Shown: one piece after another, positions 2,690 to 20,493 of the stretch
Position numbering within the stretch: the first letter of the stretch is position 1
How the letters are laid out: every line of letters starts with the position of its first letter
Notes under the pieces: model-generated
The model's database searches: none
What the model was told of the DNA's origin: nothing
What the model saw: only the letters and a program-made list of their open reading frames with translations
Virus record (IMG/VR): IMGVR_UViG_3300027983_000017
Span: 1-59,925 of that record
DNA length: 59,925 bases
DNA from: a virus
Taxonomy: Duplodnaviria > Caudoviricetes
Reading direction: 5' to 3' (one strand)
Position numbers and translations under genes: made by a program

Positions 2690-3024
2690 GGGGGCGCTAT
2701 GGAATTGATTTTCAAAAGAGTAACATAATACATCAACAGAGGTGAGATCCTGCTTTAAAAACTAGGTGAATATAATAAACGGAAACGTAAATATACACAA
2801 CAAAAAAGAAAAAGGTGCTAAAGTTTTTAACTTGGCGCGTACAATTGCTCGTCCCTCTTACGTAAGAGTGGCAGCATAGTTTTTCTACAGCTGTTCTTAT
2901 TTTCAGTAAAAAATAAATAAGTGGTGGAGTGCTGGCTCAGCTGAGTTGGCCCTATATTAAGTTGTATAAATGTATAATGAGAAAACGTGGAAAGACAGGG
3001 GTTCGACTCCCCTCGCCTCCACAA
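2690..3024 (+). ncRNA. ssrA: tmRNA
   Basis: 5' GGGGGCG pairs with 3' CGCCTCC, giving the G3-U70 Ala identity pair. T-arm agggg-TTCGACT-cccct, no D stem. Internal tag frame 2781-2879 follows ataaac and ends ...VAA-stop. Confidence 0.92.
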
Positions 3025-3042
3025 GCATGTAATTAGTAAAGT

Positions 3043-3279
3043 ATGAATAAAATCAATTGGTTATTTTTAATATTATTTATTGGGGGTATTTTATTTTACT
3101 CTTATAGTTTAAAACAAGAAGAAATGAGAAGAAAAAGAAAAAACAAAACCAAACTGCTTGATTTAAATAAGCCTAATAGGAGAAAAAGAAAAGACGGGGC
3201 TAGAAAAAACACAGTTAAAAAAGAATTGTTTAAAAGTGAAGAGGGTGAGTGTGAAGAAGATTCAAAAAACAATTTATAA
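3043..3279 (+). CDS. Small membrane-anchored basic protein
   Basis: N-terminal transmembrane segment and a Lys/Arg-rich tail. Confidence 0.55.
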   Translation: MNKINWLFLILFIGGILFYSYSLKQEEMRRKRKNKTKLLDLNKPNRRKRKDGARKNTVKKELFKSEEGECEEDSKNNL

Positions 3280-6921: not shown

Positions 6922-7344
6922 ATGAAAAGTATAATTATGTTATTCATAGCCATGTTGCTATGTTTTACTCAACAAGTTGACGCACAGAATATGTGGAAAG
7001 GAGAAATAGATCATGTTTCTCAGCAATACTCAGAACAAAGTGAAGTTTGTAAATCTGAATATGAAACCCCAGCAGTTGGGAGCTTTCTTATAGATGAAGC
7101 AAACGGAGTTTTTTATCTCACTCTACAAAACAAGCAAAATGAACAGAGTGTATATCAATCAAATATAACATCTATAGGAATACCAGCTAAAAATTGTTTA
7201 GCATCCTTAGAGTGTTTTGATATAGATAAAAATCCCACTCAAGTTTTTCTTTTTAATAATAGTCTAAATATATATAGTAAAGACGATAAAATCAAAAAGA
7301 AAGTTACTTACGGAATAAGTAATTTGTCAGTACTTACAGAATAA
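6922..7344 (+). CDS. Secreted or periplasmic hypothetical protein
   Basis: Sec-type signal peptide MKSIIMLFIAMLLCFTQQVDA-Q, with the +1 Gln typical of Bacteroidota. Confidence 0.65.
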   Translation: MKSIIMLFIAMLLCFTQQVDAQNMWKGEIDHVSQQYSEQSEVCKSEYETPAVGSFLIDEANGVFYLTLQNKQNEQSVYQSNITSIGIPAKNCLASLECFDIDKNPTQVFLFNNSLNIYSKDDKIKKKVTYGISNLSVLTE

Positions 7345-7356
7345 ACAAACCACATC

Positions 7357-7638
7357 ATGAGAACAATATTAAACGCGGTTGCTACAGGCAGCCCATTCAT
7401 CACTGAAGAGATGAATAAAGATCTTTTAGATAGTAAGATATCAATTCAAAAAAAAAGGGCCCTACTGCAAGATGCAGTAAATGTCAAGTCCTCAAAAATC
7501 TTCCCATTATGTAAAATGGGTAAGGTTTTCAGGAAAAGAGATATAAACAACCCTCATTTTAAGAATAAAATCTTACAGTCTGACAGGAACTTTCAAAATA
7601 AAAAGGTAGCCTCATTTCAATGCTTGGCAGGAATCTAA
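7357..7638 (+). CDS. Hypothetical protein
   Basis: 93-aa ORF in an operon-like arrangement. Confidence 0.55.
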   Translation: MRTILNAVATGSPFITEEMNKDLLDSKISIQKKRALLQDAVNVKSSKIFPLCKMGKVFRKRDINNPHFKNKILQSDRNFQNKKVASFQCLAGI

Positions 7639-7880
7639 GTTTCAATGTAGAGTACTTAAGTGACTCTACAGGGAATCCTGTAAATCAAGGAGATTTCCAA
7701 TATTTGGAAACATTGAATAGGAGGGATAAAGAGACAGAGAATCAGTTTGAGTGCAGAGTAATCGACTTTGTTAACTCATGTTCTGATCCTCTTACTAAGA
7801 TAGAGGATCTTTTTGAAATAGAAGATTTAAATCTACCAATACTTTTGGAAGTATTATCTACTATAGCAGAAACAGACTAG
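7620..7880 (+). CDS. Hypothetical acidic protein
   Basis: 86-aa ORF overlapping the previous stop. Confidence 0.55.
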   Translation: MLGRNLSFNVEYLSDSTGNPVNQGDFQYLETLNRRDKETENQFECRVIDFVNSCSDPLTKIEDLFEIEDLNLPILLEVLSTIAETD

Positions 7881-8130
7881 AACAAATCTGTTATAGGAGT
7901 ATCAACTTTTCGTTATGATTTTTATATTTAAAATATCAAGCTTGTAGATAGTGACATCGTTGCAACTATAATTAATTAGATGTGTGCTACATGAAGTATA
8001 ATAATATATAAGGAAAATGTTAAAGTCGTTTTTAGGAATTTGCCTAAAAGTGGTTACAAGTAAGAAGAGCCTAATACATTTATTTTTGATCCTCCTACAG
8101 GAGTTTTTGATAATATTATGTGTAATTAAT

Positions 8131-8238
8131 GTAACTAAGTAAGGTTACTCGGGCAAAAAGGCTGTAGAATCCTACCGAGTTCTACTTAGTGCTTAAGCAT
8201 TTCTACACTATGTAGAAGGCTTTTCTTTCTTGTTTTTT
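8131..8238 (+). promoter_or_regulatory. Candidate cis-regulatory RNA in the nrdJ leader
   Basis: Stems actaagta/tacttagt and actcgg/ccgagt, then a ttctaca-cta-tgtagaa hairpin with a U-rich tail; a competing tgtagaa lies at 8163-8169. Confidence 0.35.
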
Positions 8239-8267
8239 ATTGAGTATTAATTTTAAAATTTTAAATA

Positions 8268-8729
8268 TTGGATTTAGTAAAATCTGTTTTTGAAGGAAAG
8301 TACCAGAGTAACGGAGAATCTGTATCTGGAATGTGGAGTAGGATGGCTAAACAATTTGCTAGAATAAGATACAAAAAAGATGATTCTAAATCATCTGAAG
8401 ATTGGGAGAGTTATTTTTATAATTATTTTAAAGATTTCAAATACATAATACCCCAGGGTAGTGTAATGAGTTCTTTGGGTACAGATACTATAGCATCTCT
8501 TTCTAATTGTTTTGTCATAGGACAGCCAATAGATTCTTATGGAGGAATACTCCAAAAGGACCAAGAGTTGGTACAATTGATGAAAAGACGTGGTGGAGTA
8601 GGCTTAGATATAAGTACATTAAGACCAAGAGGTACTGATGTGACTAATTCAGCTAAAACATCTACAGGAGCAGCCTCTTTTATGGAGAGGTTCTCAAATT
8701 CGACTCGTGAAGTCGCACAAGAAGGGCGT
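8268..8729 (+). CDS. nrdJ: Class II (adenosylcobalamin-dependent) ribonucleotide reductase, exon 1
   Basis: SLSNCFV, KRRGGVGLDIS.LRP and STREVAQEGR motifs. Similarity ends at CGT 8727-8729, a U-terminated exon. TTG start. Confidence 0.92.
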
Positions 8730-8860
8730 AAACAAATCTGCGCCAATGTATAGTAATATACATTGAAAATTCCGAATCTTGAGAAAAACAACTCAAGGGT
8801 TAAATGAAAATTTTATTAGTAAAAACATTTAGCTAACGGGGAAACTCTTTTAATAAAAAA

Positions 8861-9157
8861 ATGAAAAAAACAGCATTACCATGTTGCGCCTTGTGCCAAC
8901 TGTCAGACGTAGGAAATAAAACTACACTCGAAGAGCTTCGATTCTTTTTAAGTAAACTTACTTTAGAGAAAGAATCGAATACAGATTATGGAATAAGTTA
9001 TGGAGATGGCCAAACTAGTGTCTTTGTAATAGTGAGTCCTGGAGAGGATATACTAATGTCTAATTTAAAATCACTTGGCTTTAAATTAGCATGGACTTTT
9101 GAACGTAGGAGAAGCTATCCTAAAGGGATGCTAAAAATGATGGTGAAAAATGTTTAA
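8861..9157 (+). CDS. Intron-1 cargo ORF in loop L5; hypothetical, possible minimal GNAT-like fold
   Basis: 98 aa, N-terminal PCC and C-terminal LKSLGF; no LAGLIDADG, HNH or GIY-YIG motif. Confidence 0.65.
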   Translation: MKKTALPCCALCQLSDVGNKTTLEELRFFLSKLTLEKESNTDYGISYGDGQTSVFVIVSPGEDILMSNLKSLGFKLAWTFERRRSYPKGMLKMMVKNV

Positions 9158-9179
9158 GCATTAATTACACTAGAATAAC

Positions 9180-9596
9180 ATGAAATACAAAATAACAGGC
9201 TCAGCTTATAGGGTGAGATCAACACCAAAAAACACTTGGAAAAAAATGATAGAAGTCGAAACAGGAAAGCGAAGACACTTTGCTTACGGAACCCTGCAGT
9301 ATGACTTATTAAGCATGAACAGGTCTAATGAGGCTTTAAAACACGTATTTTATTTAAAAGACAATCCCGTGCCGTCAATTGATTTTGATTTTACAAAAGA
9401 TAATACTATACTATTTGTCAAATGTCCTCAAGATTGGAGAAAAACCAAAAAGTGGGAACAAGTTACAAGTTTAGAATATATGCTTAATGGCAAATATTGG
9501 ATTTGTAAAACTTATAAATTTGGGTGGAGTAGATTAAAAAATTGTAAAATAAAACAAAACGGTGTAGAGACTAACAAGGAACAACCTAGGGTTTAG
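9180..9596 (+). CDS. Intron-1 cargo ORF running through the ribozyme core; hypothetical
   Basis: 138 aa; reads through the P5/P4 3' strands, P6, the P7 5' strand and the P3 3' strand, and stops inside P8. Confidence 0.5.
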   Translation: MKYKITGSAYRVRSTPKNTWKKMIEVETGKRRHFAYGTLQYDLLSMNRSNEALKHVFYLKDNPVPSIDFDFTKDNTILFVKCPQDWRKTKKWEQVTSLEYMLNGKYWICKTYKFGWSRLKNCKIKQNGVETNKEQPRV

Positions 9597-9702
9597 GTTG
9601 ATGAGATAGTCCGAACTGCAAATATAAAAATACTAAATTGCAGAATCAAACAGAAATGATTTGGTATTTAAGTATAAAAAGTTAAAAAAAAAAAAAAAAA
9701 TC

Positions 9703-10467
9703 ATGATAAAAGTATATGTAGAAGGCTCCTCTTTTTATGGTAAAATGATAGAGGATTCTATTATTATTAGCGACCCTATAAAAGCAGATCTTATTATTTT
9801 TACAGGAGGAGCAGATGTAAATCCTAAGCTTTATTCAGAAACTTGTCACAACACTACCCGCTTCAGCGATGAGAGGGATGACAAAGATAAAGCTATTTAC
9901 ACACTAGCTATAAAAAATAATATACCCATGTTAGGTATATGCAGAGGTGCTCAATTTCTTACTGTTATGAATGGCGGTAAACTTATACAACATGTTGAAG
10001 GACATGCTAATGGGGACCATAATGCATCTTTGCATGACCCTTCTGCTATAGGTATAGAGGGGGAGGTTTTTAATACGACCTCTACCCACCATCAAATGAT
10101 GTACCCATTTAATTTAGATCCTAGTTCATATGATATTTTAGCATCTTCAGAAGAAGAGCTTTCTAGTATTTATCATAAAAACAAGACAGAGGTTTTTAAA
10201 GAAGAAGAAATAGATGTGGAGTGTGAGATAGTATATTACAAAGAAACTCTATGTTTGTGTATACAGGGTCACCCAGAATCAATGTTAACAGATGAGGTAA
10301 TGATGACAATTGTCAATAATATGGTAGATGTCTATTTATTTTTACATCCTTTTATGGATGGTTCTGAGGACACCCTTTTATTAGAAGAGGCTAAAAAAAA
10401 AGAATCTGTAGAAAAATTGTTTTTATCTCAAGAGGAGGAAACAGGTGAATTAGAAAACTTTTTATAA
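9703..10467 (+). CDS. Intron-1 cargo: class I glutamine amidotransferase / peptidase C26 (gamma-glutamyl hydrolase family)
   Basis: FTGGADVNP.LY, GICRGAQ, STHHQMM and QGHPE motifs give an intact Cys-His-Glu triad. ATG 9703 follows an A17 run. Confidence 0.9.
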   Translation: MIKVYVEGSSFYGKMIEDSIIISDPIKADLIIFTGGADVNPKLYSETCHNTTRFSDERDDKDKAIYTLAIKNNIPMLGICRGAQFLTVMNGGKLIQHVEGHANGDHNASLHDPSAIGIEGEVFNTTSTHHQMMYPFNLDPSSYDILASSEEELSSIYHKNKTEVFKEEEIDVECEIVYYKETLCLCIQGHPESMLTDEVMMTIVNNMVDVYLFLHPFMDGSEDTLLLEEAKKKESVEKLFLSQEEETGELENFL

Positions 10468-10484
10468 TTAAAGTTAACAGAAAG

Positions 10485-10833
10485 AGAGGAGCATTAATGC
10501 TCACAATAGATGTGCGACATCCAGATGTTCTGGAGTTTATAAATGCTAAAAAAGATCGTACTAAAGTAACTGGAGCTAATATATCAGTTATGCTAAGAAA
10601 TGATTTTATGAAGGCAGTTGAAAAAGATGCTACTTATATACTCAGATATCCTTGTGACGCAAGTCCTGAGGAAGCTACTACAGTAAAAACTGTTAAGGCT
10701 AAAGATATATATGAAGCTATAGTTGAAAATGCTTGGGAAAATGCAGAGCCAGGACAGATGTTCATAGACAGACACTATGATTACAGCCCTGATTCTGTTT
10801 ACTCCGAGTATCGTGGGGTAACAACCAATCCGT
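10485..10833 (+). CDS. nrdJ: Class II ribonucleotide reductase, exon 2
   Basis: RGALMLTIDVRHPD...GANISV...AEPG.MFID...TTNP plus the first base of the catalytic Cys codon. Confidence 0.92.
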
Positions 10834-10930
10834 GAAACTACGCGGCCTTATACAGTGATGTATATTGAATAATTCCGAATCCCTTAATAGGGGGTAATAA
10901 TATCAAAAAAAATTAAATAGAAAATAAAAA

Positions 10931-11638
10931 ATGGGTTTAGCAGGAAAAAGTAAAATTTCTTTAAAAAGGTGGACTTTAGTTTCAAAAGACCTTTATAATA
11001 TAACAGGCGCATTTACATGCTCTGACTACATAAGGGATCGTATCGTACTCCTAAAAGGGTTTTTTATAAGTAGGATAGACCTTGAGATAAAAAATTATTT
11101 ATTACATTTAGGGTGTACAATAAACAAAGGTTTTGTGAGTCATGAAAATCCCGCAGCAACTTTATACGCTTTTAGGGTTTGCAGGTTTCAAGGTACTGAA
11201 GATTTGCTCGGTATGATAAAAAGTACGAACTATATAATTGATAAGACAGGCATGGATCCTATAACAGCCATCTTTCTTAATACTTTTTATCACATAGACA
11301 AAGAATCTTCTTTTGATCGTATGCGTGTGAGGGGGGCTGAAGGGTTTCCACCCCAAATGTACCAAAAGAATACATATAACGGTATATACCTTTCTTACCT
11401 CCCTAAAAAACTACCTAGTATTAAAACCCTGGTGTTAAAAGGATTAGATACAGATACTTTTGGTAAGCTAGCTACTCGGATTGCAAGCTTAGAAGATTAT
11501 ATTGTATGTTCTAAGGAAATTTACACCATCAGAAAATTAATGGAAAAAAACGATTTTAATTCAGCATTAAAAAAATTAGAAGGTATTATTGCTAACGGGG
11601 AAACCTTAAAACAAAAAAATGACACTAGAAGAATTTAA
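10931..11638 (+). CDS. Intron-2 cargo ORF in a P3-P4 peripheral loop; hypothetical
   Basis: 235 aa, enclosed by stem 10894-10904/11582-11592; its C-terminus (IANGET) is encoded by the P4/P5 5' strand. Confidence 0.7.
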   Translation: MGLAGKSKISLKRWTLVSKDLYNITGAFTCSDYIRDRIVLLKGFFISRIDLEIKNYLLHLGCTINKGFVSHENPAATLYAFRVCRFQGTEDLLGMIKSTNYIIDKTGMDPITAIFLNTFYHIDKESSFDRMRVRGAEGFPPQMYQKNTYNGIYLSYLPKKLPSIKTLVLKGLDTDTFGKLATRIASLEDYIVCSKEIYTIRKLMEKNDFNSALKKLEGIIANGETLKQKNDTRRI

Positions 11639-12128
11639 AAATAAATACCCTTTTGTACAGACTCCCCAACAGAGGGGTTCTATTACAGTAGGGGCTTGTA
11701 GAATTTCTTGGAGAGAAACCTCGAATTGTAAGTTCTTAATGGCCAACCAGCCAAGTGGTGAACTACTAGAAGCACTGTTTAAAAAAATGCCCTATTATCC
11801 TGGGTTGTTTTGCACTGCTGGAACCAGAGTAAATAGAAAAACCTACCCCCCAGAGTATAGAATTCTGTATGAAGTAGAAGTTCCTGTTTCATATGACAGC
11901 GCATGTAATCAAATACACTATTACATACAGAATCCATATCATACACATTATAAAAATAGGTTGGATAAAATGGTACCTGTATTAATAGGGGATAAAACTA
12001 AAAAAACTATTTTTAATTACAAAGAGTTTCTAGAAGTAGAAAAAAAGTATAAATCAAATTACTATAAATACAGAGCTTTAGTAAAATTGATGAAATTTGA
12101 AGATCCAAAAAAGTCTATAGAAAAATAA
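11619..12128 (+). CDS. Intron-2 cargo ORF in loop L5; hypothetical
   Basis: 169 aa between P5 strands acctt (11603) and aaggt (12128). Confidence 0.7.
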   Translation: MTLEEFKNKYPFVQTPQQRGSITVGACRISWRETSNCKFLMANQPSGELLEALFKKMPYYPGLFCTAGTRVNRKTYPPEYRILYEVEVPVSYDSACNQIHYYIQNPYHTHYKNRLDKMVPVLIGDKTKKTIFNYKEFLEVEKKYKSNYYKYRALVKLMKFEDPKKSIEK

Positions 12129-12298
12129 AGGTAATCCCGTCACGTCAATTGATAATGTAAATTACAAAACGTGCGAGAGACTGACAAGGAACAACCTAAA
12201 AGGTTGGTGATACAGTCCGATCCTAACAAATAAAAATTAAAGTTAGTGTTACATTGCATAAAGTGTAACAATCCGTAAAATAAATAATAAAATCAGAT

Positions 12299-12967
12299 AT
12301 GGGAGTAATAAAATGTACAAGTGTTGGACTCTTTAACTCAATAAGTAAAGATTCTTTATATGCTGTATCGAGAGAAACTAAAGATTTCTTCTTTATAGTA
12401 AACGATAACAACTTAAGATCAAGATACGGTAAAAAATATTTTGAAAAAGTTGAAGAAGCAGATAAAACTGAGAAAGTTAGTGTGACTAAGCCAGAAGATA
12501 TTCTTGTCCATAACGATGGAGAGTATTTTATACTTACTCACCCGAAAAAAGTATTAAAAATAATACTTATAAAAGATCTGCTGAACCTTATTTCAGGTTC
12601 AACAACAAATTTGGGAGAGTTTACTTTAAATATAAACCTCGAACCACTTGTTAAAAAAATAGGAGAGGTAGCCAAGGAATCAAGTCAAAAAGGATTTATA
12701 CTTGACTCTTTAGTACCAGTGCTTATAGAAGAGCTATTTTCTTCTGTTATAGAAGAATACTACGAATCTCTAAAAGAGGAGAAAACTATTTTGTTTTTTA
12801 ACTGTGACCGATACAGCCCTCTAGATCAAATACTAAAAAGTTTTTCTTGTAAAGAAGACATTATTTGTTCTGAAGTAGCCAAAGATAAAATACTATACAT
12901 TCATTTTCTCATGGGTTTTATAAAAGAAGAGGATAGTATGCCTATTTTTCTTGATGAAAACGGATAA
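12299..12967 (+). CDS. Intron-2 cargo ORF in loop L9.2; hypothetical with a small N-terminal beta-barrel-like domain
   Basis: 222 aa enclosed by atccgt (12271)/acggat (12960); N-terminal IKC...Y.V..E...F.IVND....RY.K.YFE pattern. Confidence 0.7.
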   Translation: MGVIKCTSVGLFNSISKDSLYAVSRETKDFFFIVNDNNLRSRYGKKYFEKVEEADKTEKVSVTKPEDILVHNDGEYFILTHPKKVLKIILIKDLLNLISGSTTNLGEFTLNINLEPLVKKIGEVAKESSQKGFILDSLVPVLIEELFSSVIEEYYESLKEEKTILFFNCDRYSPLDQILKSFSCKEDIICSEVAKDKILYIHFLMGFIKEEDSMPIFLDENG

Positions 12968-12974
12968 TATTTCG

Positions 12975-14593
12975 GTGGTGAAATATTTATGCAACCCTAC
13001 GATGCTTGTAGGCTAATATGTCTTAATTTCTTTTCTTTTGTAAATGAGTGTTTTACAGAAAAAAGCAGTATAGACTATAAAAAGCTTTATGAAGTATCCT
13101 ACGAGATGCAGTTAATGGCTGATGATCTAGTAGACCTAGAAATAGAAGCTATTGACAAAATAATAAAAAAAATAGAAGATGATCCCCAACCAGAAGAAGT
13201 TAAGTCTTTAGAGTTATCCCTATGGAATAAAATAAAAGATGTGGCTTCTTCTGGCAGAAGGACTGGTAACGGGTTTACTGGGCTGGGTGATATGTTTGCT
13301 GGTATAAACATAAAGTATGGTTCTGATGAGAGCTTAAAAATACTTGAGTTAGTAATGCAAACTAAAATGAAAGCTGAGCTTAATGCTACTATTGATATGG
13401 CAGAAAAATACGGACATTTCAAAGGGTGGGATCATAAAAAAGAATTTGACTTCAATAATTGGGGTTCTAATGATTTTTATGCTATGCTAGCAAATAAATT
13501 CCCTAAAGAAATGGTTCGTATGAGTAAATACGGTCGTAGAAATGTGTCGTGGAGTACTGTCGCACCTACAGGTAGCGTCAGCATACTAGCAGAAGTAACG
13601 TCTGGACTTGAACCCCTATTTCAACCTTATTATACAAGGAGGAAAAAAGTAAACCCAGGAGATAAAAATGTACAAGTAGATTTTACAGACCAAAATGGAG
13701 ACTCTTGGCAAGAGTATACTGTATTGCATAGTAAGTTTAAAAAGTGGATTGAAGTAAAATCTAACTCTAGTGTGTTCGCAGATGAAATATCTCCTACAGA
13801 CTTACAAGCTTGGTTTAAAGAATCTCCTTGGTGTGGTAGTACAGCTAATGATATAGATTGGGAAAAAAGAGTAGAAATGCAAAGTATTATTCAAACTTAT
13901 ACTAGCCATAGTATAAGTTCTACCCTTAACTTACCTGAAACAGTCTCTAAAAGAGAGGTGGCTAAAATTTATATGCATTCTTATAGGAGTGGGTTAAAGG
14001 GGGTTACTATCTATAGGGACAATTCTAGATCAGGGGTACTAATAACAAAAAAAGAAAAAGAAGGTTTTGTACAAAAAAATGCCCCTAAAAGGCCTGAAAA
14101 AATAAACTGCCGAGTACACCAAACAGTGTATGATAATAATAGGTGGTTAGTTATTGTTGGTCTTTTAGAAGATAAACCTTATGAAGTATTTTGTGTACCT
14201 AATTATTATGAACTTCCACTAGGGAGTTTAGATGGTTTTCTTTCTAAAAAAAATAAAGGAGTATACTTTTTAGAAGTTAAGAAGGATGAACTTGCTTACA
14301 CTATAGAAAATGTAGTAGCAGAGATGACTGCAGAACAAGAAGTGATAACTAGATTGATATCAACATCTCTCAGACATGGTGCTAATATAAAATTTATAGT
14401 AGAACAACTAAGTAAAACTAGCGGTGGAATAACAGCTTTTTCAAATAGTATTTCAAGAGTGCTAAAGATGTACATACCCGAAGGGGAGAAGTCTACTTTG
14501 ACTTTTGAAGATTGTATTGAATCAGAATCTTGTGATATAATCTTTGAAGAAGGGTGTGTAAAGTGTAACTACTGCGCTAAAACAAAATGTTAA
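12975..14593 (+). CDS. nrdJ: Class II ribonucleotide reductase, exon 3 (spliced product 809 aa)
   Basis: (C)GEI, DACRL, GRRTG.GFTG, TVAPTGSVS, ISSTLNLP, LKGVTIYRD motifs and C-terminal EEGCVKCNYC...C. Exons sum to 462+349+1619 = 2430 nt. Confidence 0.94.
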
Positions 14594-14600
14594 ATAAATA

Positions 14601-15038
14601 ATGCCTATATATTGTAAGGTTAAACAGAAAAGAACAGTCAGATCCTTTCTTAAAGAAGGGTTTACAGGAAATAAAAATGGGTTTAAAAGTAAATTTGTTT
14701 CAACGTACTCAGATGAAGAATGCGTTATTTTAGAATGTGATATTGCAAGGAGGTCCTTTCAAGATTTATATACTATATGTAGTACAAGATATAAAAATCT
14801 TAACAAAAACCTTTTTTCTCTTGAGTTAATACAAATGATACAAAGAAGAGAACTAGTTTGTATATACTGTCCCAAAATAGGAAAACTAGTATTTATTGGA
14901 AATACAAAAAACGAGCCAGACCTTACAAAAAATCTTGCAAGACAGGTATCTATGAAATCTTTTGATTTTAAAGGCCTTGATAACTACTCTTTTCAAGATA
15001 TTATAGATATGGCAAATAAAATAAAAAAAGTTTGTTAA
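14601..15038 (+). CDS. Hypothetical protein
   Basis: 145-aa ORF directly after nrdJ. Confidence 0.6.
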   Translation: MPIYCKVKQKRTVRSFLKEGFTGNKNGFKSKFVSTYSDEECVILECDIARRSFQDLYTICSTRYKNLNKNLFSLELIQMIQRRELVCIYCPKIGKLVFIGNTKNEPDLTKNLARQVSMKSFDFKGLDNYSFQDIIDMANKIKKVC

Positions 15039-15357: not shown

Positions 15358-15390
15358 AAGAGGGGGGGTAATTCCCCCTTCTTTTATTTT
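15358..15390 (+). terminator. Intrinsic terminator
   Basis: G-rich/C-rich hairpin (aagaggggggg-taatt-cccccttctt) followed by a T-tract. Confidence 0.75.
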
Positions 15391-15396
15391 AAACTA

Positions 15397-16083
15397 ATGA
15401 AAGCATTTAAAGTAGGACAAGAATCTTTAAGATTACCCATATGGGCCAAACAAATTAAAGAAATAGTAAATAAAATAGAGGATGCAGATGTATTAATAAT
15501 TGATAGTGATGAGGATTTGAACCCTAGTTTATATATGGATTACACACTACATCCGTATACTTTAAAAGAAAGGATGGACACTATCTCAGATTCTTACGAA
15601 ACAGCTTTAATAAGGAAAGCTATAAAATTAGATATTCCTATAGTAGCAATAAATAAAGGAGCTTTAATGGCTTGTATTGAGGCTGGTGGGGCTGTCATCC
15701 AATATGCAAATAACCATAGAAATATCCATACAATTACAACTTTAGTAGGGGATATAAAAATAGGATCTAAGCACATAGCTATGATGGACCTTAGTTGGTT
15801 ACCCTCAAGTAAATATTCTTTATTGGGGTATTCTAAGGTTTCAAACAACTATCGAAAAGGTAATGAAAACCCTTATTTTAATAAAAAAGAAACAAGAGAA
15901 AGTTTCAGAGAACCAGAAATAGTTTATTTTAAAGAGATAGGGTGCTTAGCCATACAGTGTGACGTACCTGTAGTGGGTTCAATGGATACATATTTTGAAT
16001 ACCTTAAGACCTGTTTGGATAATATGTTATTAATTGAAAGTAAAAAAGATCTCTATGAGAGAAAAGTACGTAATATGCACTAA
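15397..16083 (+). CDS. Degenerate peptidase C26 / class I amidotransferase paralogue (probably inactive)
   Basis: Colinear with the 9703 protein, but AINKGA replaces GICRGA and AIQCD replaces QGHPE. Confidence 0.75.
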   Translation: MKAFKVGQESLRLPIWAKQIKEIVNKIEDADVLIIDSDEDLNPSLYMDYTLHPYTLKERMDTISDSYETALIRKAIKLDIPIVAINKGALMACIEAGGAVIQYANNHRNIHTITTLVGDIKIGSKHIAMMDLSWLPSSKYSLLGYSKVSNNYRKGNENPYFNKKETRESFREPEIVYFKEIGCLAIQCDVPVVGSMDTYFEYLKTCLDNMLLIESKKDLYERKVRNMH

Positions 16084-16990
16084 TTCAGGTATAAAAACTA
16101 TAAAAAGCCTTATTAGTAAAATGTCCGATGTAGTTTTTGTTTCTATTTCTAAACCAGGCCCAAAAAGAAAAGTTATATACTACAAAAATGGTAAAATTAT
16201 AGATAAAAAGTTTTTAGGGGATTGTTTAACTATTAATAACTCTATCATAATCAGGTATGGAAGTGCTTTTCCTATAAAAGGAGAAGGAAATATAGTTTAT
16301 AACGAACCCTCTAACATCATTCTTTCATCCAATAAGATGAAGTCAAGGAAAGAGATGACCGAACTTAAGGTCAGCTGCCCTACTGTTTATGATTTAAAAA
16401 ATAGAATAAGAAAGTTTCCTTTAGTAGTAAGGCCTTTTAAGCACTCTAAAGGAAAAGATTTTACTATACTCAAAAACCCCATAGAATTAGAAGTTTTTAA
16501 AAATAATAATCCTACAGGATATTATTATTCTGAGTTTGTTAAAAAGGAAAAAGAGTTTAGAGTACACTGTGCTCATGGAAAAATCTTACTTATAAAAGAA
16601 AAACCCGAACCCAAAGATGGTAACCCCATATGGAATATAGACGCTAATGGAGAAGCTTTTGTATACATACCTTGGGAGGAGTACAACTTTCCTGGGATGA
16701 GGGATGTTTGTTTACAATCTTTAAAAGCAACCAAGGCTTTAGGTTTAGACTTTGCTGCTATAGATATAATGCTACGAAATAATGTAGCTTACGTACTAGA
16801 GGCAAATACAGCTCCCTCCCTATACACAGCAGAGTACACAGAAGGGCGTTATATAAAATACTTCGAATACCTTTTTAATTTAAGCAAAAATCAGAAATTA
16901 AGCCACTGGGATTACTCTTCTTTTAAGGAGGCTGATTCTTTAGCATGGAAAAATAATCAATTAATTTCAAATAAAAATGTCATCAAATAA
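16034..16990 (+). CDS. ATP-grasp ligase (RimK/YheC-like, phiEco32-type)
   Basis: SSNK, EFRVH, LGLDFAAIDIM and YVLEANTAPSL motifs; the start may be ATG 16055. Confidence 0.88.
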   Translation: MKVKKISMREKYVICTNSGIKTIKSLISKMSDVVFVSISKPGPKRKVIYYKNGKIIDKKFLGDCLTINNSIIIRYGSAFPIKGEGNIVYNEPSNIILSSNKMKSRKEMTELKVSCPTVYDLKNRIRKFPLVVRPFKHSKGKDFTILKNPIELEVFKNNNPTGYYYSEFVKKEKEFRVHCAHGKILLIKEKPEPKDGNPIWNIDANGEAFVYIPWEEYNFPGMRDVCLQSLKATKALGLDFAAIDIMLRNNVAYVLEANTAPSLYTAEYTEGRYIKYFEYLFNLSKNQKLSHWDYSSFKEADSLAWKNNQLISNKNVIK

Positions 16991-17801
16991 GAAAACTTTT
17001 AAGACACTTAAGAATATCACAATAGGATCTGACCCAGAATTGTTTTTAACAACTCTTAAAGGTATGGTTATCTCTGCAGAAGGAAAGCTAGGTGGTACTA
17101 AAGATAACCCTAGAAAATTAAGTAATCTAGGACATGCTGTTCAAGAAGATAATGTTATGGTTGAGTTCAATATCCCCCCTGTTAAAGGAGAGGATGAATT
17201 TGTAAGAGAACTTAAACTAACAATGGATCTTATTAAAAAAGACGTCCTTAAAGGAGAGTATGAACTTTTGGCCATACCATCTTCTTTTTTAAGCAAAGAG
17301 GAGTGTTCTACAGATCAAGCTATAACTGTAGGGTGTGAGCCTGATTTTAACGCATATACAGGAGAGGAAAACCCTACATGTGATATAGATGTTATACCTT
17401 GTAAAAGATACTGTGGTGGACATATTCATATAGGTACTTCTACTGAAATGGGAGAGGACGAAAAAATGGCCCTAATAACATTCATGGATGTATTTGTAGG
17501 TGCACCCTCTTCAATTCTAGATTTAGATGTATATAGGAAAAATATATATGGACAAATGGGTAGAATGCGTTTTACTGACTACGGGGTAGAGTATAGAACC
17601 CTTTCTAATTGGTGGTTAGGTTCTGAAGAAAATCAAAGATTTATATTCAAACAAACAATGATTGCTATAGAATATTATAACAACTGTAGAGGAGTTCTTA
17701 GCGAAGCTTTAAAAACTCTTATTCTAGAAGGTAAATTTCTAGAGGTTTGTAATATTTGTAATATATCTGTTAGTAAAGAAAAAGTACATGTCATGGATTA
17801 A
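16977..17801 (+). CDS. phiEco32-like COOH-NH2 ligase type 2
   Basis: IGSDPELFL, GGTK..P, QEDNV.VEFN, GCEPDFNAY, GGHIHIG and YGVEYRTLSNWW motifs. Confidence 0.92.
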   Translation: MSSNKKTFKTLKNITIGSDPELFLTTLKGMVISAEGKLGGTKDNPRKLSNLGHAVQEDNVMVEFNIPPVKGEDEFVRELKLTMDLIKKDVLKGEYELLAIPSSFLSKEECSTDQAITVGCEPDFNAYTGEENPTCDIDVIPCKRYCGGHIHIGTSTEMGEDEKMALITFMDVFVGAPSSILDLDVYRKNIYGQMGRMRFTDYGVEYRTLSNWWLGSEENQRFIFKQTMIAIEYYNNCRGVLSEALKTLILEGKFLEVCNICNISVSKEKVHVMD

Positions 17802-18510
17802 GAGATTTACTCCGGCTATGAAAAACACTCTTTATGCAGATATAATAGACAAAAAATTGATTATGTCTGGTTTAAAATTCTCATGTACAACAGCAATGGA
17901 TGAAAGCTATAGTCGTTGTTCGGGTACTAGTGATAATCTTTTTAATATTACAGGTAACAAGTGTTTATTAACTACAGGAAAACCCCTGACAGTAGATCAA
18001 GACTTCGGAGGTAGATCCCTAACTCCTGGGTCACCCACTATCTCTGATTTTTATAAAATTCCTTCTTATTTAATGAGGGCAAAATCTCACCTTTCTCGAA
18101 ATCCTGAATTGCTTTTTATTAAAAGTACTTATGAATTAACGAGTCTGAACACAGACTTTTTTAAAAGGTATGGTAGAGATCCCTGTTGGATTCTTCATCC
18201 TCTCTTACCTTTTTATACTGCTGGTTTAGATGGTATGTACTACGCTCCTTATACTTTTTTTAACTACAATCCTAATAAAAATGAGAAAGAATTAATATGT
18301 ATTCAAAAAATGCCTAGTTTTAAACTAAAAATAAATACTCTTGTAACTTGTAAAAAGTCTTTTTATCTTGGGGTGGATAAAAACAAAACTAAACTTAAAA
18401 TACATTTTATAGAGTCAAAAAATAACGAACATTTTGCTACTTTATGCGACTCTAAAAATAAAAAATATTTGATAAGATTAAAACATCTAAAAAAATGGAA
18501 AAAAGAATAA
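17788..18510 (+). CDS. Hypothetical protein in the amidoligase cluster
   Basis: 240-aa ORF overlapping both neighbours. Confidence 0.65.
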   Translation: MSWIKRFTPAMKNTLYADIIDKKLIMSGLKFSCTTAMDESYSRCSGTSDNLFNITGNKCLLTTGKPLTVDQDFGGRSLTPGSPTISDFYKIPSYLMRAKSHLSRNPELLFIKSTYELTSLNTDFFKRYGRDPCWILHPLLPFYTAGLDGMYYAPYTFFNYNPNKNEKELICIQKMPSFKLKINTLVTCKKSFYLGVDKNKTKLKIHFIESKNNEHFATLCDSKNKKYLIRLKHLKKWKKE

Positions 18511-18860
18511 TAGTGTATGGTACACTTAAAAAGGGATTTAATAACCACAGGCTTCTGTTAAATTCAAAATTTATAGATACTGCTATAACTAAAAATAAGT
18601 ATACTATGACAAGAGCTGGTATACCTTATGTAAATGAAGATAAGCCTACTTCTTTTATACACGGAGAAGTGTATGATGTAGATAAAGAAACTCTTTGGAG
18701 GTTAGATGGTTTAGAGGGATTTAGGGGTAGTAGAAAAAATTCTTTTTATTACAGAAAACCTATACTTGTAACTTTAAAAAGTGGAGAAGAAACAGAAGCA
18801 GAAATTTACTTTTCTGACCAATCTTCAAAAATAATTGTAGAAGATGGTATTTACAAATAA
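18495..18860 (+). CDS. Gamma-glutamylcyclotransferase (AIG2-like)
   Basis: VYGTLKKGFNNH, IHGEVYDV, LDGLEG and Y.R motifs. Confidence 0.92.
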   Translation: MEKRIIVYGTLKKGFNNHRLLLNSKFIDTAITKNKYTMTRAGIPYVNEDKPTSFIHGEVYDVDKETLWRLDGLEGFRGSRKNSFYYRKPILVTLKSGEETEAEIYFSDQSSKIIVEDGIYK

Positions 18861-18879
18861 AAAATAAAAACAGAAAAAT

Positions 18880-20493
18880 ATGTGTGGAATTGTTGCCTTT
18901 TCAGGTGAAAAAGAATTTGACCCTAATAAAATAGCAACTTTATTAGCAATAAATCAAACAAGAGGACTAGATAGCTGGGGTCATTGTTCTATAGTACCTT
19001 CTGAAACTAAGGGTTCAGTAGTACACAAAAGTTATAAACAAGTAGGTAAACTAATAGATAGTCTTAATGATTTAAAATTAATACCCTCTAAAGAGTTTAT
19101 AAGTCATGTAAGAGCAAGAACTAAGGGTGTTGTGAGTGTGGATAATGCTCACCCATTTCAGTATAAAGACGAAGGTAACCTTTTGACAGGAGTACATAAT
19201 GGTACTATAGAAAATTGGATTGCTCTTGAAAAACATATGAATGATAAAGTTTTTACAGAAAAACAAAAAAAGTTACACGGTGTAAAAATTAACTTTTCTG
19301 TAGATAGTCAACTTTTATTTTATTCTATATTATGTCAAAATAATTATGAGTTTTTAGAAAAAATAGAAGGTGGCACAGCATTTAGTATGCTTACTAGAGG
19401 GTCTTTAAGGGTATATACTAATGGGGGAAGGACTTTGTTTAGGGGCACTACAGAAGAAGGTATATACTTTTCTTCCATAGAAGAGCCTTTATTGTTTCTT
19501 GGTATGACTGATGTAGAGCCTATAGAGTGGGACTCTGTTTTATCTTATAGTGAAGGAAAGCTTGTAAAAAGTGTTCCTATAGAGAAAAAACCCCTAGTTA
19601 AAGTAACTACTACTGGCCATACAGATTCTGTTTTCTTTAGGGTCTTTAATACAAAAGAAGCTATAAATAAAAAAGAAGATGAAGGTTATGAGTTGCTTCC
19701 CTTTTATAAGTCAAACAGTAACTTAGCTTATTATCCAAAAACAGATTCGTGGGTATGTGGTAGCTTAATACTAAAAGATTTTGAAATTTTTAAAAAGAGT
19801 GAAAAAAATCTTAGTATTATCCCTATGACGAGAGTATCAGATATAAACTTTATAAAAGGTCTTCCTGGTTCAGACCCAGGGATAATTATAACTCCCCTAG
19901 TAATAGATAAAAAAGGAATTTATTTTGACTTCCAAGATGTAGAGTTTAATTTGTTTAAAGTGTATCCTAATAGTTCTGCAAAAGTACTAACTATAGAAAA
20001 AGAAGAGGTAACTTTAAGTACTGGGGTATTAAGGTCTATGACTCTTACTGAGTACTCAAACGGAACAAAAAGGTTTGTACCGAACTCTTTTGTAAGTAAA
20101 GCAGAAGATGTACAATATGCTTGTATATATTTTGATTATAGAATAAAAAAGTTTTTAAAGTGCACAACTTATAGTGAACACTCTTGGGTAGAGGAAGAAG
20201 TGACAAACTTTGAAGATTTATATGGAATATCTACTGAAGAGTATTTAAAAAGGTTTCCAGACACATCGGTAGAATCCTTAAAAGTTGCACCTAAGACTGG
20301 GGCAAATAAGTTAGAGTTTTTATCAGAGTTATGCTGTCTCCTAACAGAGTTAGAGCTGTCAATTATTTTAACTAATTCTGACATAGTTTCAGGTGTTAGT
20401 GTACCAAATATTATAAATATAACTGATTTATCTAAGATGAAAAAAAGGTTAGTAGATATTAATTTAAAACGTAAAATTAAACTAGACTCATGA
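18880..20493 (+). CDS. Class II (Ntn) glutamine amidotransferase with a long C-terminal extension
   Basis: MCGI, RGLDSWG, HVRART.G, NAHPF, HNGTI and VDSQ motifs. Confidence 0.9.
   Translation: MCGIVAFSGEKEFDPNKIATLLAINQTRGLDSWGHCSIVPSETKGSVVHKSYKQVGKLIDSLNDLKLIPSKEFISHVRARTKGVVSVDNAHPFQYKDEGNLLTGVHNGTIENWIALEKHMNDKVFTEKQKKLHGVKINFSVDSQLLFYSILCQNNYEFLEKIEGGTAFSMLTRGSLRVYTNGGRTLFRGTTEEGIYFSSIEEPLLFLGMTDVEPIEWDSVLSYSEGKLVKSVPIEKKPLVKVTTTGHTDSVFFRVFNTKEAINKKEDEGYELLPFYKSNSNLAYYPKTDSWVCGSLILKDFEIFKKSEKNLSIIPMTRVSDINFIKGLPGSDPGIIITPLVIDKKGIYFDFQDVEFNLFKVYPNSSAKVLTIEKEEVTLSTGVLRSMTLTEYSNGTKRFVPNSFVSKAEDVQYACIYFDYRIKKFLKCTTYSEHSWVEEEVTNFEDLYGISTEEYLKRFPDTSVESLKVAPKTGANKLEFLSELCCLLTELELSIILTNSDIVSGVSVPNIINITDLSKMKKRLVDINLKRKIKLDS

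What the first reader, a model, noticed from the sequence alone, without database searches (positions are those of the whole stretch)
8268..14593. Gene-packed group I introns: six non-endonuclease ORFs nested in two nrdJ introns
Seen: nrdJ is three exons (8268-8729, 10485-10833, 12975-14593) that join in frame to 809 aa, each junction with exon-U and intron-terminal-G. Each intron has a full P1-P10 core whose strands are spread over about 2 kb because three ORFs sit in its peripheral loops, most closed by their own stem. Intron 1 uses L5 (tcttttaa 8846/ttaaaaga 9354), L6a and L9.2 (tataaaaagtt 9673/aactttttata 10456). Intron 2 uses a P3-P4 hairpin loop, L5 and L9.2. None of the six ORFs shows a LAGLIDADG, HNH or GIY-YIG motif. 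Established: phage group I introns normally carry no ORF or a single homing endonuclease. Inference: these introns serve as nested operons for ordinary phage genes. That would make them hard to lose and could couple cargo expression to RNR splicing or to excised intron RNA.
Basis: partly seen in the sequence, partly recalled or inferred. Interest (0 to 1): 0.95.

Follow-up and report, generated by a model that had tools for sequence, protein, structure and literature searches.

The report
Gene-packed group I introns in phage nrdJ
A freshwater phage's B12-dependent ribonucleotide reductase gene is cut twice by large self-splicing-type (group I) introns that each carry three ordinary-looking genes instead of the usual single homing endonuclease, and related aquatic phages have similar introns.

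Summary
nrdJ is three pieces (8268-8729, 10485-10833, 12975-14593). They join in frame to 809 aa and align without gaps at both junctions to an intact phage NrdJ. A related contig has an uninterrupted nrdJ whose exon homologues abut exactly. Junction 2 splits the codon of the Cys in the N-P-C-G-E motif, so separate polypeptides would lack it.

Both intervening sequences have a group I core (exon U paired to G, terminal G, P1-P10). It is supported by compensatory changes across 14 related introns: these 2 plus 12 in a phage helicase gene. Rfam's model does not score them.

All six ORFs look coding, and none matches a homing endonuclease family.
- One is a class I glutamine amidotransferase/peptidase C26 with free-standing homologues.
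- One belongs to an about 100-aa mini-GNAT-like family that usually sits in loop L5 of this intron family.
- One runs through the ribozyme core in a frame conserved across the family.
- The three in intron 2 are orphans.

All 14 introns are 1.8-2.9 kb with 3-5 ORFs, and some relatives also hold LAGLIDADG genes. Splicing and cargo expression are untested, because no RNA data were available. I rate it a new variant of a known kind, interest about 0.7.

The parts
8268..8729 (+). nrdJ exon 1 (154 codons; TTG start uncertain)
   Evidence: Pfam Ribonuc_red_lgC positions 1-76, E 3.1e-12. 67% identical to the contiguous nrdJ of L002, ending at L002 7586.
8730..10484 (+). Intron 1 (1755 nt), group I. 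Helices: P1 8725-8729/8740-8744; P10 8737-8739/10485-10487; P2 8744-8752/8757-8765; P3 8770-8773/9578-9581; P4 8836-8841/9365-9370; P5 8846-8853/9354-9361; P6 9371-9375/9559-9563; P7 9567,9569-9573/9607-9612 with A9568 bulged; P8 9582-9588/9594-9600; P9 9616-9621/9638-9643; P9.1 9645-9650/9660-9665; P9.2 9673-9683/10456-10466; terminal G 10484
   Evidence: All listed helices are fully paired. Core elements are shared with intron 2 and the helicase introns. Covariation.
8861..9157 (+). ORF1a, 98 aa, in loop L5; mini-GNAT-like small protein family
   Evidence: 50-58% identical homologues at the same L5 position in the L003, L004 and L007 introns. 175 representative clusters at E<=1e-3. No Pfam family. 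AF2 pLDDT 95.2. Best PDB folds are GNAT acetyltransferases, E 3.5e-3 and weaker, TMq 0.53-0.66 among those top rows.
9180..9596 (+). ORF1b, 138 aa (alternative start ATG 9315 gives 93 aa). Starts in L5, reads through P5', P4', P6, L6, P6', P7, P3' and P8, and stops in L8
   Evidence: The frame through the core is conserved in the family: 29 of 29 distinct Q..R segments keep the frame, 24 of 29 are open in it, and 0 of 29 are open in either other frame. No Pfam family.
9703..10467 (+). ORF1c, 254 aa from ATG 9703 (268 aa from TTG 9661), in loop L9.2; class I glutamine amidotransferase / peptidase C26-like
   Evidence: Pfam Peptidase_C26 2.5e-20 and GATase 1.1e-12. phrog_7218 2e-41. Free-standing homologues at L009 6664-7404 (48% identity), L013 2351-3094 and window 15397-16083.
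10485..10833 (+). nrdJ exon 2 (349 nt; its last T is the first base of the split Cys codon)
   Evidence: Pfam Ribonuc_red_lgC positions 81-193, E 7.5e-15. The L002 homologue 7587-7985 abuts the exon 1 homologue.
10834..12974 (+). Intron 2 (2141 nt), group I, paralogue of intron 1. Helices: P1 10830-10833/10842-10845; P10 10837-10841/12975-12979; P2 10849-10854/10859-10864; P3 10873-10876/12188-12191; extra hairpin 10895-10902/11584-11591 closing ORF2a; P4 11595-11600/12135-12140; P5 11603-11607/12128-12132; P6 12141-12145/12169-12173; P7 12177,12179-12183/12213-12218; P8 12192-12197/12201-12206; P9 12223-12227/12242-12246; P9.1 12247-12253/12264-12270; P9.2 12271-12276/12960-12965 (read off the sequence; the check used mis-set coordinates 12273-12278); terminal G 12974
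   Evidence: P6 and P7 differ from intron 1 by compensatory changes: GCCGT/ACGGT versus CACGT/ACGTG, and GACTA/TAGTC versus GACTG/CAGTC.
10931..11638 (+). ORF2a, 235 aa, in the hairpin between P3 and P4; its 3' end overlaps the P4 5' strand; orphan
   Evidence: Only itself found among 5.8 billion proteins. In-frame codon log-odds 0.256 against -0.54 and -0.48 off-frame. No likeness to the family's LAGLIDADG profile.
11619..12128 (+). ORF2b, 169 aa, in L5; orphan
   Evidence: Only a 99% identical copy found. No GenBank phage match. Codon log-odds 0.181 in frame. hhalign against LAGLIDADG gives probability 0.25%.
12299..12967 (+). ORF2c, 222 aa, in L9.2; N-terminal about 50 aa is DUF6501-like
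   Evidence: Pfam DUF6501 1.8e-5. N-terminus 35% identical to the ORF in the P9 region of the L005 helicase intron. Otherwise only itself.
12975..14593 (+). nrdJ exon 3 (starts with GT, completing the Cys codon)
   Evidence: Pfam Ribonuc_red_lgC 227-523, E 2.5e-36, plus TSCPD. PDB 1xje/1xjk B12-dependent RNR, E 3e-23. Query residue 1 (G of G-E-I) aligns to chain residue 323.

Best explanation
Two paralogous group I introns of one family interrupt nrdJ at two conserved active-site-coding positions. One lies between the codons for G-R and R-G-A. The other lies inside the Cys codon of N-P-C-G-E.

Inferred mechanism:
- The gene and both introns are transcribed as one RNA.
- In each intron a 4-5 nt guide sequence pairs with the end of the upstream exon (U.G at the splice site).
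- Peripheral closing stems bring together core strands that lie up to 0.8 kb apart.
- A free guanosine attacks after U8729 or U10833.
- The terminal G (10484 or 12974) then occupies the P7 site, and the exons are ligated to give an 809-aa class II reductase.

Each intron has picked up three protein-coding genes in places a group I fold tolerates: L5, L9.2, and a hairpin between P3 and P4. Most are not homing endonucleases.
- A GATase/peptidase C26 enzyme related to a downstream amidoligase gene cluster.
- A small mini-GNAT-like protein typical of L5 in this intron family.
- A conserved ORF that overlaps the ribozyme core.
- Three orphans.

They would be translated from the precursor or from the excised intron RNA.

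Shown: gene structure, core pairings with covariation, coding character of the ORFs, the family-wide pattern, and an intron-less allele in a relative.
Inferred: splicing itself, expression of the cargo, and any coupling between the two.
For: (1) The joined exons align over residues 50-809 at 50% identity to the intact 871-aa NrdJ of Leptolyngbya phage Lbo-JY46, with no gap at either junction. L002 has an uninterrupted 834-aa nrdJ with exon homologues at 7128-7586, 7587-7985 and 7989-9590. The missing codon is the split Cys codon.

(2) The first in-frame ATG of piece 3 is 12989, and a TAA lies at 12965-12967. An unspliced product would therefore lack the Cys that aligns to residue 322 of the T. 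maritima enzyme.

(3) The P, Q, R and S core elements occur in both introns, and all helices are fully paired.

(4) The guide sequence tracks the exon: GGCGT/GCGCC, CCGT/GCGG and GGGT/GCCC. P10 also tracks it: TCT/AGA, ACTAC/GTGGT and GTTTT/AAAAC.

(5) Formal count on 12 introns for P1+P2: 98.3% of cells paired against 82.1% in shuffles. 8 of 10 pairs change on both sides. 0 of 500 shuffles reach the observed values for the percentage paired, the two both-sides measures and the covariation score; 3 of 500 reach it for further pair types. Slid controls give 22-62%. U.G at the splice site is found in 12 of 12.

(6) Own-partner versus swapped-partner helix scores: P2 16.5 vs 9.7, P9.1 14.4 vs 8.4, P3 9.4 vs 7.1. 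P3 occurs as TTCC/GGAA, CTCA/TGAG and TTCA/TGAA.

(7) All six ORFs have positive in-frame codon log-odds (0.17-0.42) and negative off-frame values. The longest open frames are 276 and 236 codons, against a maximum of 146 and 141 in 1000 shuffles.

(8) No HEG family at E<=0.1. No likeness of the intron 2 ORFs to the family's LAGLIDADG profile. No tblastn match of the relatives' HEGs in the window at E<=1.

(9) All 14 family introns are 1755-2946 nt, hold 3-5 ORFs of at least 60 aa, and are 71-95% coding.

(10) No terminator-like site on the + strand between 8268 and 14208. The strong one is at 15358-15383.
Against: - No RNA evidence of any kind.
- Rfam's group I model gives no hit on the window at gathering or E<=10, even on the compact 3' core of intron 2. 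The same model does score a compact neighbouring intron in L012 at 99.5 bits.
- P3 is only 4 bp, and two hairpins lie between P3 and P4. This is atypical, and I could not assign a subgroup.
- P1 is short (4-5 bp).
- Swapped-partner controls barely separate P5 (13.4 vs 11.9), P8 (18.2 vs 17.1), P1 (9.6 vs 8.2) and P10 (7.7 vs 6.6), because these strands vary little or are A/T-rich.
- The closing stems of intron 2 are not above chance alone.
- The three ORFs of intron 2 have no homologues, so their function and expression are unknown.
- Translation of ORF1b through the core should compete with folding.
- No homing endonuclease is seen, so how these two copies reached nrdJ is unexplained.
Confidence: 0.8

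Rival explanations
1. The introns are real and spliced, but part of the 'cargo' is not ordinary phage genes. ORF1b, and possibly the intron 2 orphans, would be the intron's own mobility or maturase proteins, or decaying remnants of such, too diverged to recognise.
For: The core-spanning ORF is the most conserved coding feature of the family. The frame is kept in 29 of 29 segments and open in 24 of 29. It is present even in about 1-kb members such as L033. Relatives' versions end in Cys-rich, zinc-ribbon-like tails (sub-threshold HVO_2753_ZBP 2.2e-4 in L022). Some family members carry LAGLIDADG genes, so endonuclease-bearing ancestry is plausible. ORF2a, 2b and 2c have no homologues.
Against: No endonuclease or maturase family or motif was detected. 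ORF1c and ORF1a have free-standing homologues outside introns. ORF1a folds like a GNAT core rather than a nuclease. The intron 2 ORFs have normal codon usage and full length.
Confidence: 0.12
2. The gene is split at DNA level and never rejoined at RNA level. NrdJ would be made as three polypeptides that assemble, as in the Aeromonas phage Aeh1 NrdA split by a homing endonuclease gene, and the intervening genes are simply inserted cassettes.
For: A precedent for a fragmented, reassembled phage RNR exists (PMC3045599, abstract seen in the listing). In-frame ATGs lie close to the start of pieces 2 and 3 (10497 and 12989).
Against: The Cys codon of N-P-C-G-E is divided between pieces 2 and 3. Piece 3 has no start upstream of 12989 and has a TAA at 12965-12967, so the essential Cys, Gly and Glu residues would be missing. 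Piece 2 from ATG 10497 would lose R-G-A-L. The group I cores, with guide sequences matching each exon and covariation across 14 introns, would have no purpose.
Confidence: 0.03
3. nrdJ here is a dead gene. The introns have been crippled by the insertions and no longer splice, and the phage relies on host or other reductases.
For: Three large insertions per intron and an ORF across the core might prevent folding. Rfam finds nothing. The contig is only about 51% of a genome, so another RNR cannot be excluded.
Against: All three exons keep open frames at 53-67% identity to L002 with no frameshift. All core helices are intact. The same architecture recurs in 12 helicase introns that split a Walker A motif of a replication gene, which would be lethal if unspliced.
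Confidence: 0.05

Closest known systems
Phage group I introns in nucleotide-metabolism and replication genes (T4 td, nrdB, nrdD; Bacillus and Staphylococcus phage DNA polymerase and RNR introns)
   Same: Self-splicing-type intron in a conserved catalytic region of an RNR or replication gene. ORFs are placed in peripheral loops. An ORF can overlap core sequences, with expression then needing control (PMC3984707, passages; PMC11878797, passages and Table 2).
   Different: Those introns carry no ORF or one homing endonuclease. In the PMC11878797 passages I read, the intron-encoded CDSs are described as endonucleases. Here there are three ORFs per intron (3-5 in relatives), none matching an endonuclease family in the window. 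Two extra hairpins lie between P3 and P4. Sizes are 1.8-2.9 kb.
Giant ND5-717 group I intron of hexacoral and corallimorpharian mitochondria
   Same: A group I intron whose peripheral segment holds conventional genes and that is nevertheless removed by splicing (PMC6545197, abstract).
   Different: That case is organellar. All its genes sit in one segment (P8), it reaches 18-19 kb, and it is removed by back-splicing of a permuted precursor. Here the setting is a phage, several loops are used, and the arrangement is linear.
Fungal mitochondrial group I introns with several ORFs (for example the Exserohilum turcicum cob intron with five putative HEGs)
   Same: More than one non-overlapping ORF inside one group I intron (PMC11835236, passages).
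   Different: Those ORFs are all putative homing endonucleases. Here the identified ones are a GATase and a GNAT-like protein.
Aeh1 phage NrdA split by a free-standing endonuclease gene
   Same: A phage RNR large-subunit gene interrupted by inserted coding DNA (PMC3045599, abstract in the listing).
   Different: That product is reassembled from two polypeptides and there is no intron. Here a split codon and ribozyme cores argue for RNA splicing.

Membership tests
Group I intron | 5' exon ends in U that pairs with G of an internal guide sequence (P1) | tested here: met
   T8729.G8740 and T10833.G10842, with P1 of 5 and 4 bp. U.G in 12 of 12 aligned family introns.
Group I intron | Intron ends in G (omega G), and a P10 pairing to the 3' exon is possible | tested here: met
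   G10484 and G12974, with P10 of 3 and 5 bp. All 14 family introns end in G.
Group I intron | Conserved core P3-P8 with P4-P6 and P3-P7-P8 domains, including P7 with a bulged nucleotide next to a G-C pair | tested here: met
   All helices are paired. Compensatory changes occur in P3, P6, P7, P8, P2 and P9.1 across the family. The weak point is that P3 is only 4 bp.
Group I intron | Scores with the curated covariance model (Rfam RF00028) | tested here: not met
   No hit. The model does hit a compact intron in L012 at 99.5 bits, so the tool works. The 0.2-0.8 kb loop insertions are the likely reason. A loop-deleted test could not be run.
Group I intron | Guanosine-dependent self-splicing / exon ligation in RNA | not testable with these tools
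   No RNA run was listed for this DNA.
Class II (B12-dependent) ribonucleotide reductase NrdJ | RNR barrel domain across the whole protein, likeness to solved class II enzymes, active-site N-P-C-G-E | tested here: met
   Pfam positions 1-76, 81-193 and 227-523 in the three pieces. PDB 1xje/1xjk E 3e-23. 50% identity to an intact phage NrdJ. The role of the Cys as radical site is recalled knowledge.
Homing endonucleases (LAGLIDADG, GIY-YIG, HNH, others in Pfam) | Match of any of the six ORFs to an endonuclease family | tested here: not met
   None at E<=0.1 in Pfam or PHROGs. hhalign against the family's own LAGLIDADG alignment gives probability below 1% for ORF2a, 2b and 2c. Remote or novel endonuclease folds are not excluded for the orphans.
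Class I glutamine amidotransferase / peptidase C26 (ORF1c) | Family profile match above the curated cut-off | tested here: met
   Peptidase_C26 73.6 bits (cut-off 20.5) and GATase 48.4 bits (cut-off 22.8). phrog_7218 2e-41. The G-I-C-R-G and G-H-P-E motifs are visible in the translation. Their reading as a Cys-His-Glu triad is recalled.
GNAT acetyltransferase (ORF1a) | Full GNAT fold with acetyl-CoA site | tested here: inconclusive
   The model is confident (pLDDT 95.2). The protein is only 98 aa. Foldseek E values are 3.5e-3 and weaker, and TMt is 0.34-0.45 among the GNAT matches in the first 12 rows. No Pfam GNAT match in 79 members.

The most novel reading that the evidence does not exclude
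A lineage of A+T-rich aquatic phages uses one group I intron family as a gene-carrying platform. The introns move between replication and nucleotide-metabolism genes (helicase, RNR, DNA polymerase) and collect up to five accessory genes in their loops. They also encode a protein whose reading frame is locked onto the ribozyme core itself. This would be a dual-use RNA in which translation of that ORF and folding of the ribozyme exclude each other. That would give a built-in switch between cargo expression and production of the host enzyme. The core-spanning protein and the L5 mini-GNAT protein would then be new classes of intron-associated proteins.
Probability: 0.3. Interest if true: 0.85.

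Novelty: new variant of a known kind. Interest (0 to 1): 0.7.

Why it matters
Group I introns in phages are treated as minimal selfish elements made of a ribozyme plus at most one homing endonuclease. Here a whole intron family is 71-95% coding, with 3-5 genes each, including a metabolic enzyme and gene families that also live outside introns.

If they splice, ribozyme loops are working as safe insertion sites for accessory genes in tightly packed phage genomes. A group I core would also tolerate three or four large loop insertions at once, plus an ORF laid over its catalytic core.

There is a practical consequence. Standard covariance-model scans miss these introns, so split helicase, RNR and polymerase genes in aquatic viral metagenomes will be mis-annotated as fragments.

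The system would give a natural test bed for how translation and ribozyme folding compete on one RNA.

Tried and rejected
- RNA evidence: no RNA holder listed. The four runs found are DNA contigs. Three may be the source of this contig.
- Laying them showed the whole stretch in one contig with no differences in X1-X3, and 100%-identical short pieces in X4. The pieces include 12819-13092 across the intron 2/exon 3 boundary. This argues against a chimeric assembly but says nothing on expression.
- Contigs of relatives in the same runs join 8612 to 12975 with 523 letters between (466 expected for an intron-less gene). This is only a hint, because the likeness threshold was 80%.
- Rfam gave no group I hit on the window or on eight related loci searched together. 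A later small search showed the filters can lose true introns in large searches.
The RNA tools take only stored sources, and joined sequence may not be typed.
- Searches for the same two nrdJ introns elsewhere failed. The intron 2 5' junction pattern gave 6 chance hits in G+C-rich contigs, and the intron 1 pattern gave none.
- GenBank phages hold nothing like ORF1a, ORF2b or ORF2c. They hold only short core-like matches of 38-39 nt to the intron 2 core.
- ESM Atlas gave no usable feature hit for ORF1a or ORF2a. Its ORF2a model is poor (pLDDT 0.43), so its structure rows were ignored.
- The second structure job was not spent on the orphans, because single-sequence models would be unreliable.
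- The P-like motif at 24747 lies inside a continuous 238-aa ORF and was set aside as chance.
- An ORF1a-domain search of the three giant ORFs of the window found nothing.
- Promoter-like sites are at chance level, 32 against 31.1.
- Two metagenome hits (L039, L057) are G+C-rich and unrelated.
- Literature searches for multi-ORF or non-endonuclease cargo in phage group I introns found no report. The library lacks most subscription journals, and I did not open supplements. Tables S8-S12 of PMC12880540 might list long or ORF-bearing introns.
- The search of earlier findings and the look-up of encoding contigs were closed, so the genomic context of distant ORF1a relatives could not be read.

Full report
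WHAT THE WINDOW IS. The window is a whole IMG/VR viral record of 59,925 bp, judged about 51% complete. It has 30.6% G+C. Its + strand genes from 55 to 29,426 are tightly packed in one direction. Around the finding lie a family A DNA polymerase, thymidylate synthase, MazG, a second peptidase C26 homologue, an ATP-grasp protein, a phiEco32-type COOH-NH2 ligase and a class II amidotransferase. The DNA occurs in freshwater metagenome runs, and in short identical pieces in an estuary run.

THE GENE STRUCTURE IS REAL. Three ORF pieces match successive parts of the ribonucleotide reductase barrel profile: positions 1-76, 81-193 and 227-523.
- The product aligns at 50% identity to the intact 871-aa NrdJ of Leptolyngbya phage Lbo-JY46, with no gap at either junction.
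- The related contig L002 has one uninterrupted 834-aa nrdJ. The homologues of exons 1, 2 and 3 lie there at 7128-7586, 7587-7985 and 7989-9590. They abut exactly, and the one codon between the last two is the split codon.
- Exon 2 ends ...AAT CCG T, and exon 3 begins GT GGT GAA. The Cys codon of the N-P-C-G-E motif is therefore divided by intron 2.
- Exon 3's G-E-I aligns to residues 323 onward of the Thermotoga B12-dependent enzyme, which places the Cys at 322. That this is the radical-bearing cysteine is recalled knowledge.
- Upstream of exon 3 the frame holds TAA at 12965-12967, and the first ATG is 12989.
- Three separate polypeptides would thus lack C-G-E-I-F and R-G-A-L. This makes the split-protein reading very unlikely.

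THE INTERVENING SEQUENCES ARE GROUP I INTRONS. Both share four conserved blocks that correspond to the classical P, Q, R and S elements. Their resemblance to the Rfam consensus can be seen in the alignment printed. Every helix from P1 to P10 could be placed, and all of these are fully paired, apart from intron 2's P9.2, which I read from the sequence.

The strongest evidence is comparative. A search with the R block found seven other viral contigs. A search with the L5 protein found 17 loci. In these contigs the same intron family sits in a DnaB-like helicase gene, inside the Walker A motif (...N-S-K-V-G | K-T-Q...).

I delimited 14 introns: 2 in nrdJ and 12 in helicase genes.
- Guide sequence. 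It changes with the exon: GGCGT/GCGCC, CCGT/GCGG and GGGT/GCCC. P10 changes too: TCT/AGA, ACTAC/GTGGT and GTTTT/AAAAC.
- P1 plus P2, counted on 12 aligned introns. 98.3% of cells pair, against 82.1% in shuffles. 8 of 10 pairs change on both sides. 0 of 500 shuffles reach the observed covariation. Slid partners give 22-62%.
- P3. It occurs as TTCC/GGAA, CTCA/TGAG and TTCA/TGAA.
- P7. It occurs as GACTA/TAGTC and GACTG/CAGTC.
- P6. It occurs as GCCGT/ACGGT and CACGT/ACGTG.
- P2 and P9.1. Each shows 10 different helix versions. Own-partner scores are well above swapped partners: 16.5 vs 9.7 and 14.4 vs 8.4.
- P5, P8, P1 and P10. These separate only weakly from swapped partners, because they vary little or are A/T-rich.

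WEAK POINTS OF THE RNA MODEL.
- Rfam RF00028 never hits the window. It does score a compact intron in L012 at 99.5 bits. The large loop insertions are the probable cause, but I could not run the loop-deleted test.
- P3 has only 4 bp.
- Two hairpins lie between P3 and P4, which is unusual, and I assign no subgroup.
- Inverted repeats abound in this DNA. The closing stems of intron 2 therefore carry little weight on their own. The 11-bp stem (17 nt at 94%) closing ORF1c is the best long-range repeat of intron 1.

THE SIX ORFS. All have codon usage like the window's other genes in frame, and unlike it out of frame. The longest open frames exceed every one of 1000 shuffles. None matches an endonuclease family.
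- ORF1c is a class I glutamine amidotransferase / peptidase C26. It has a paralogue at 15397-16083 and free-standing homologues in related contigs. It fits the amidoligase-type gene cluster downstream.
- ORF1a belongs to a family of about 100-aa proteins.
  - The family has 175 representative clusters and no Pfam family.
  - The model is confident (pLDDT 95.2), and its nearest solved folds are GNAT acetyltransferases at weak significance.
  - Close homologues sit just downstream of the P element, that is in L5, in 10 of 13 newly fetched loci. In three loci (L013, L016, L026) they are free-standing, with no intron elements.
- ORF1b is not a loop ORF. It begins in L5, crosses P5', P4', P6, L6, P6', P7, P3' and P8, and stops in L8.
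  - The same arrangement recurs through the family.
  - One search listed 44 Q-element places. In 15 no R element was found by my pattern within 450 nt, and these were dropped; intron 2 and two G+C-rich chance hits are among them. Duplicate segments had already been removed.
  - In all 29 remaining distinct Q-to-R segments L6 keeps the two core blocks in one frame.
  - 24 of the 29 are open in that frame, and none is open in either other frame.
  - This is a protein-coding constraint laid over the ribozyme core.
  - Relatives' versions often end in Cys-rich tails inside L8.
  - Intron 2 has lost this ORF; its L6 is 23 nt.
- ORF2a, ORF2b and ORF2c have no homologues beyond near-identical copies. 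The exception is a DUF6501-like N-terminus in ORF2c, shared with an ORF in the L005 intron. They show no likeness to the family's LAGLIDADG proteins.

A FAMILY TRAIT. All 14 introns are 1755-2946 nt, hold 3-5 ORFs of at least 60 aa, and are 71-95% coding. Several cargo families have members both inside introns and free-standing. Some 'outside' rows of that table are merely loci whose introns I had not delimited, namely L014, L021 and L009.

Some members do carry canonical endonucleases. LAGLIDADG_2 is found in L010 (3e-34) and L018 (1.3e-18). GIY-YIG genes lie next to or inside neighbouring introns in L017 and L003.

A metagenome scan with the Q block gave 40 stretches. 23 of them show the helicase exons. 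Others lie in an RNR gene (L060), a DNA polymerase gene (L046, L056) and another helicase-like gene (L061). Smaller members of about 1 kb also exist (L033).

The two nrdJ introns themselves were found nowhere else. Intron 1 shares its 27-nt R block exactly with the helicase introns, and also ORF1a. Intron 2 is more diverged and shares no cargo with intron 1. Cargo therefore turns over faster than the core.

HOW IT PROBABLY WORKS (inferred).
- Transcription likely runs through nrdJ and both introns. No terminator-like site on the + strand appears before 14209, and the strong one is at 15358-15383.
- Closing stems of the loaded loops bring the core strands together.
- Splicing follows the canonical guanosine-initiated pathway and restores the active-site coding sequence.
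- Cargo ORFs, each with its own ATG in an A-rich context, would be translated from precursor or excised intron RNA.
- Ribosomes on ORF1b would unfold P4-P8. The review PMC3984707 (passages) notes that ORFs extending into core sequences need tightly controlled expression.
- Loops of a self-splicing intron are among the few places in a dense phage genome where an inserted gene does no harm. This would explain the accretion.

COMPARISON AND NOVELTY. Passages from PMC3984707 and PMC11878797, and the Jug phage paper PMC12880540 (introns averaging about 206 nt), describe phage group I introns as ORF-less or endonuclease-bearing. The nearest parallels are organellar.
- The giant ND5-717 intron holds mitochondrial genes (PMC6545197, abstract).
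- A fungal cob intron holds five putative endonucleases (PMC11835236, passages).
- The fungal rnl intron that encodes ribosomal protein S3 is recalled, not looked up.

Six literature searches found no report of multi-gene, non-endonuclease cargo in phage group I introns. Coverage is limited, and supplements were not opened. I therefore file this as a new variant of a known kind.

VERDICT. I give about 0.8 that these are functional group I introns carrying real, mostly non-endonuclease genes. Coupling of cargo expression to splicing remains speculation. Interest 0.7.

Noticed in passing
window 2690-3024 (+): A full-length tmRNA gene (Rfam RF00023, 68.8 bits, E 1e-24) on a phage contig.
   Followed up: no
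window 33395-52540 (-), 52545-58145 (-), 29497-33393 (-): Three very large adjacent ORFs of 6381, 1866 and 1298 aa on the minus strand. The ORF1a-family profile finds nothing in them. They were not characterised otherwise.
   Followed up: partly
L012 3004-5706 (also L004 and L017): Two group I introns appear to be separated by a 9-nt mini-exon (AAAGTGGGT, coding K-V-G) in the helicase gene. A compact canonical intron (RF00028 99.5 bits at 3004-3252) ends just before the mini-exon. The large multi-ORF family intron starts right after it, at 3314. The exact 3' end of the compact intron was not worked out.
   Followed up: partly
window 15397-20493 (+): This is a gene cluster of a second peptidase C26 homologue, an ATP-grasp (RimK/R2K-like) protein, a phiEco32-type COOH-NH2 ligase and a class II glutamine amidotransferase. 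The intron-borne ORF1c looks like an extra copy of one of its parts.
   Followed up: partly
window 14601-15038 (+): The 145-aa ORF just downstream of nrdJ belongs to the same protein family as ORFs carried in the P9 region of helicase introns in L011, L012, L017 and L019. No Pfam family.
   Followed up: partly
L013 4001-4952, L016 1969-2966: In several helicase introns the ORF1a-like gene is followed by an about 190-230-aa partner ORF. The pair also occurs free-standing in contigs without intron elements, which suggests a two-gene module.
   Followed up: partly
protein P0064: A 5745-aa protein in the representative library matches the middle of the ORF1a profile in 19 separate stretches. This may be a repeat or a low-complexity effect.
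   Followed up: no
L010 5023-5710 and L011 5002-5690: In these helicase introns a LAGLIDADG gene sits directly after the P7 5' strand, and the P8 stem is replaced by an unrelated 8-bp stem (TTTCCAAT/ATTGGAAA in L010). The family therefore tolerates wholesale replacement of P8.
   Followed up: partly
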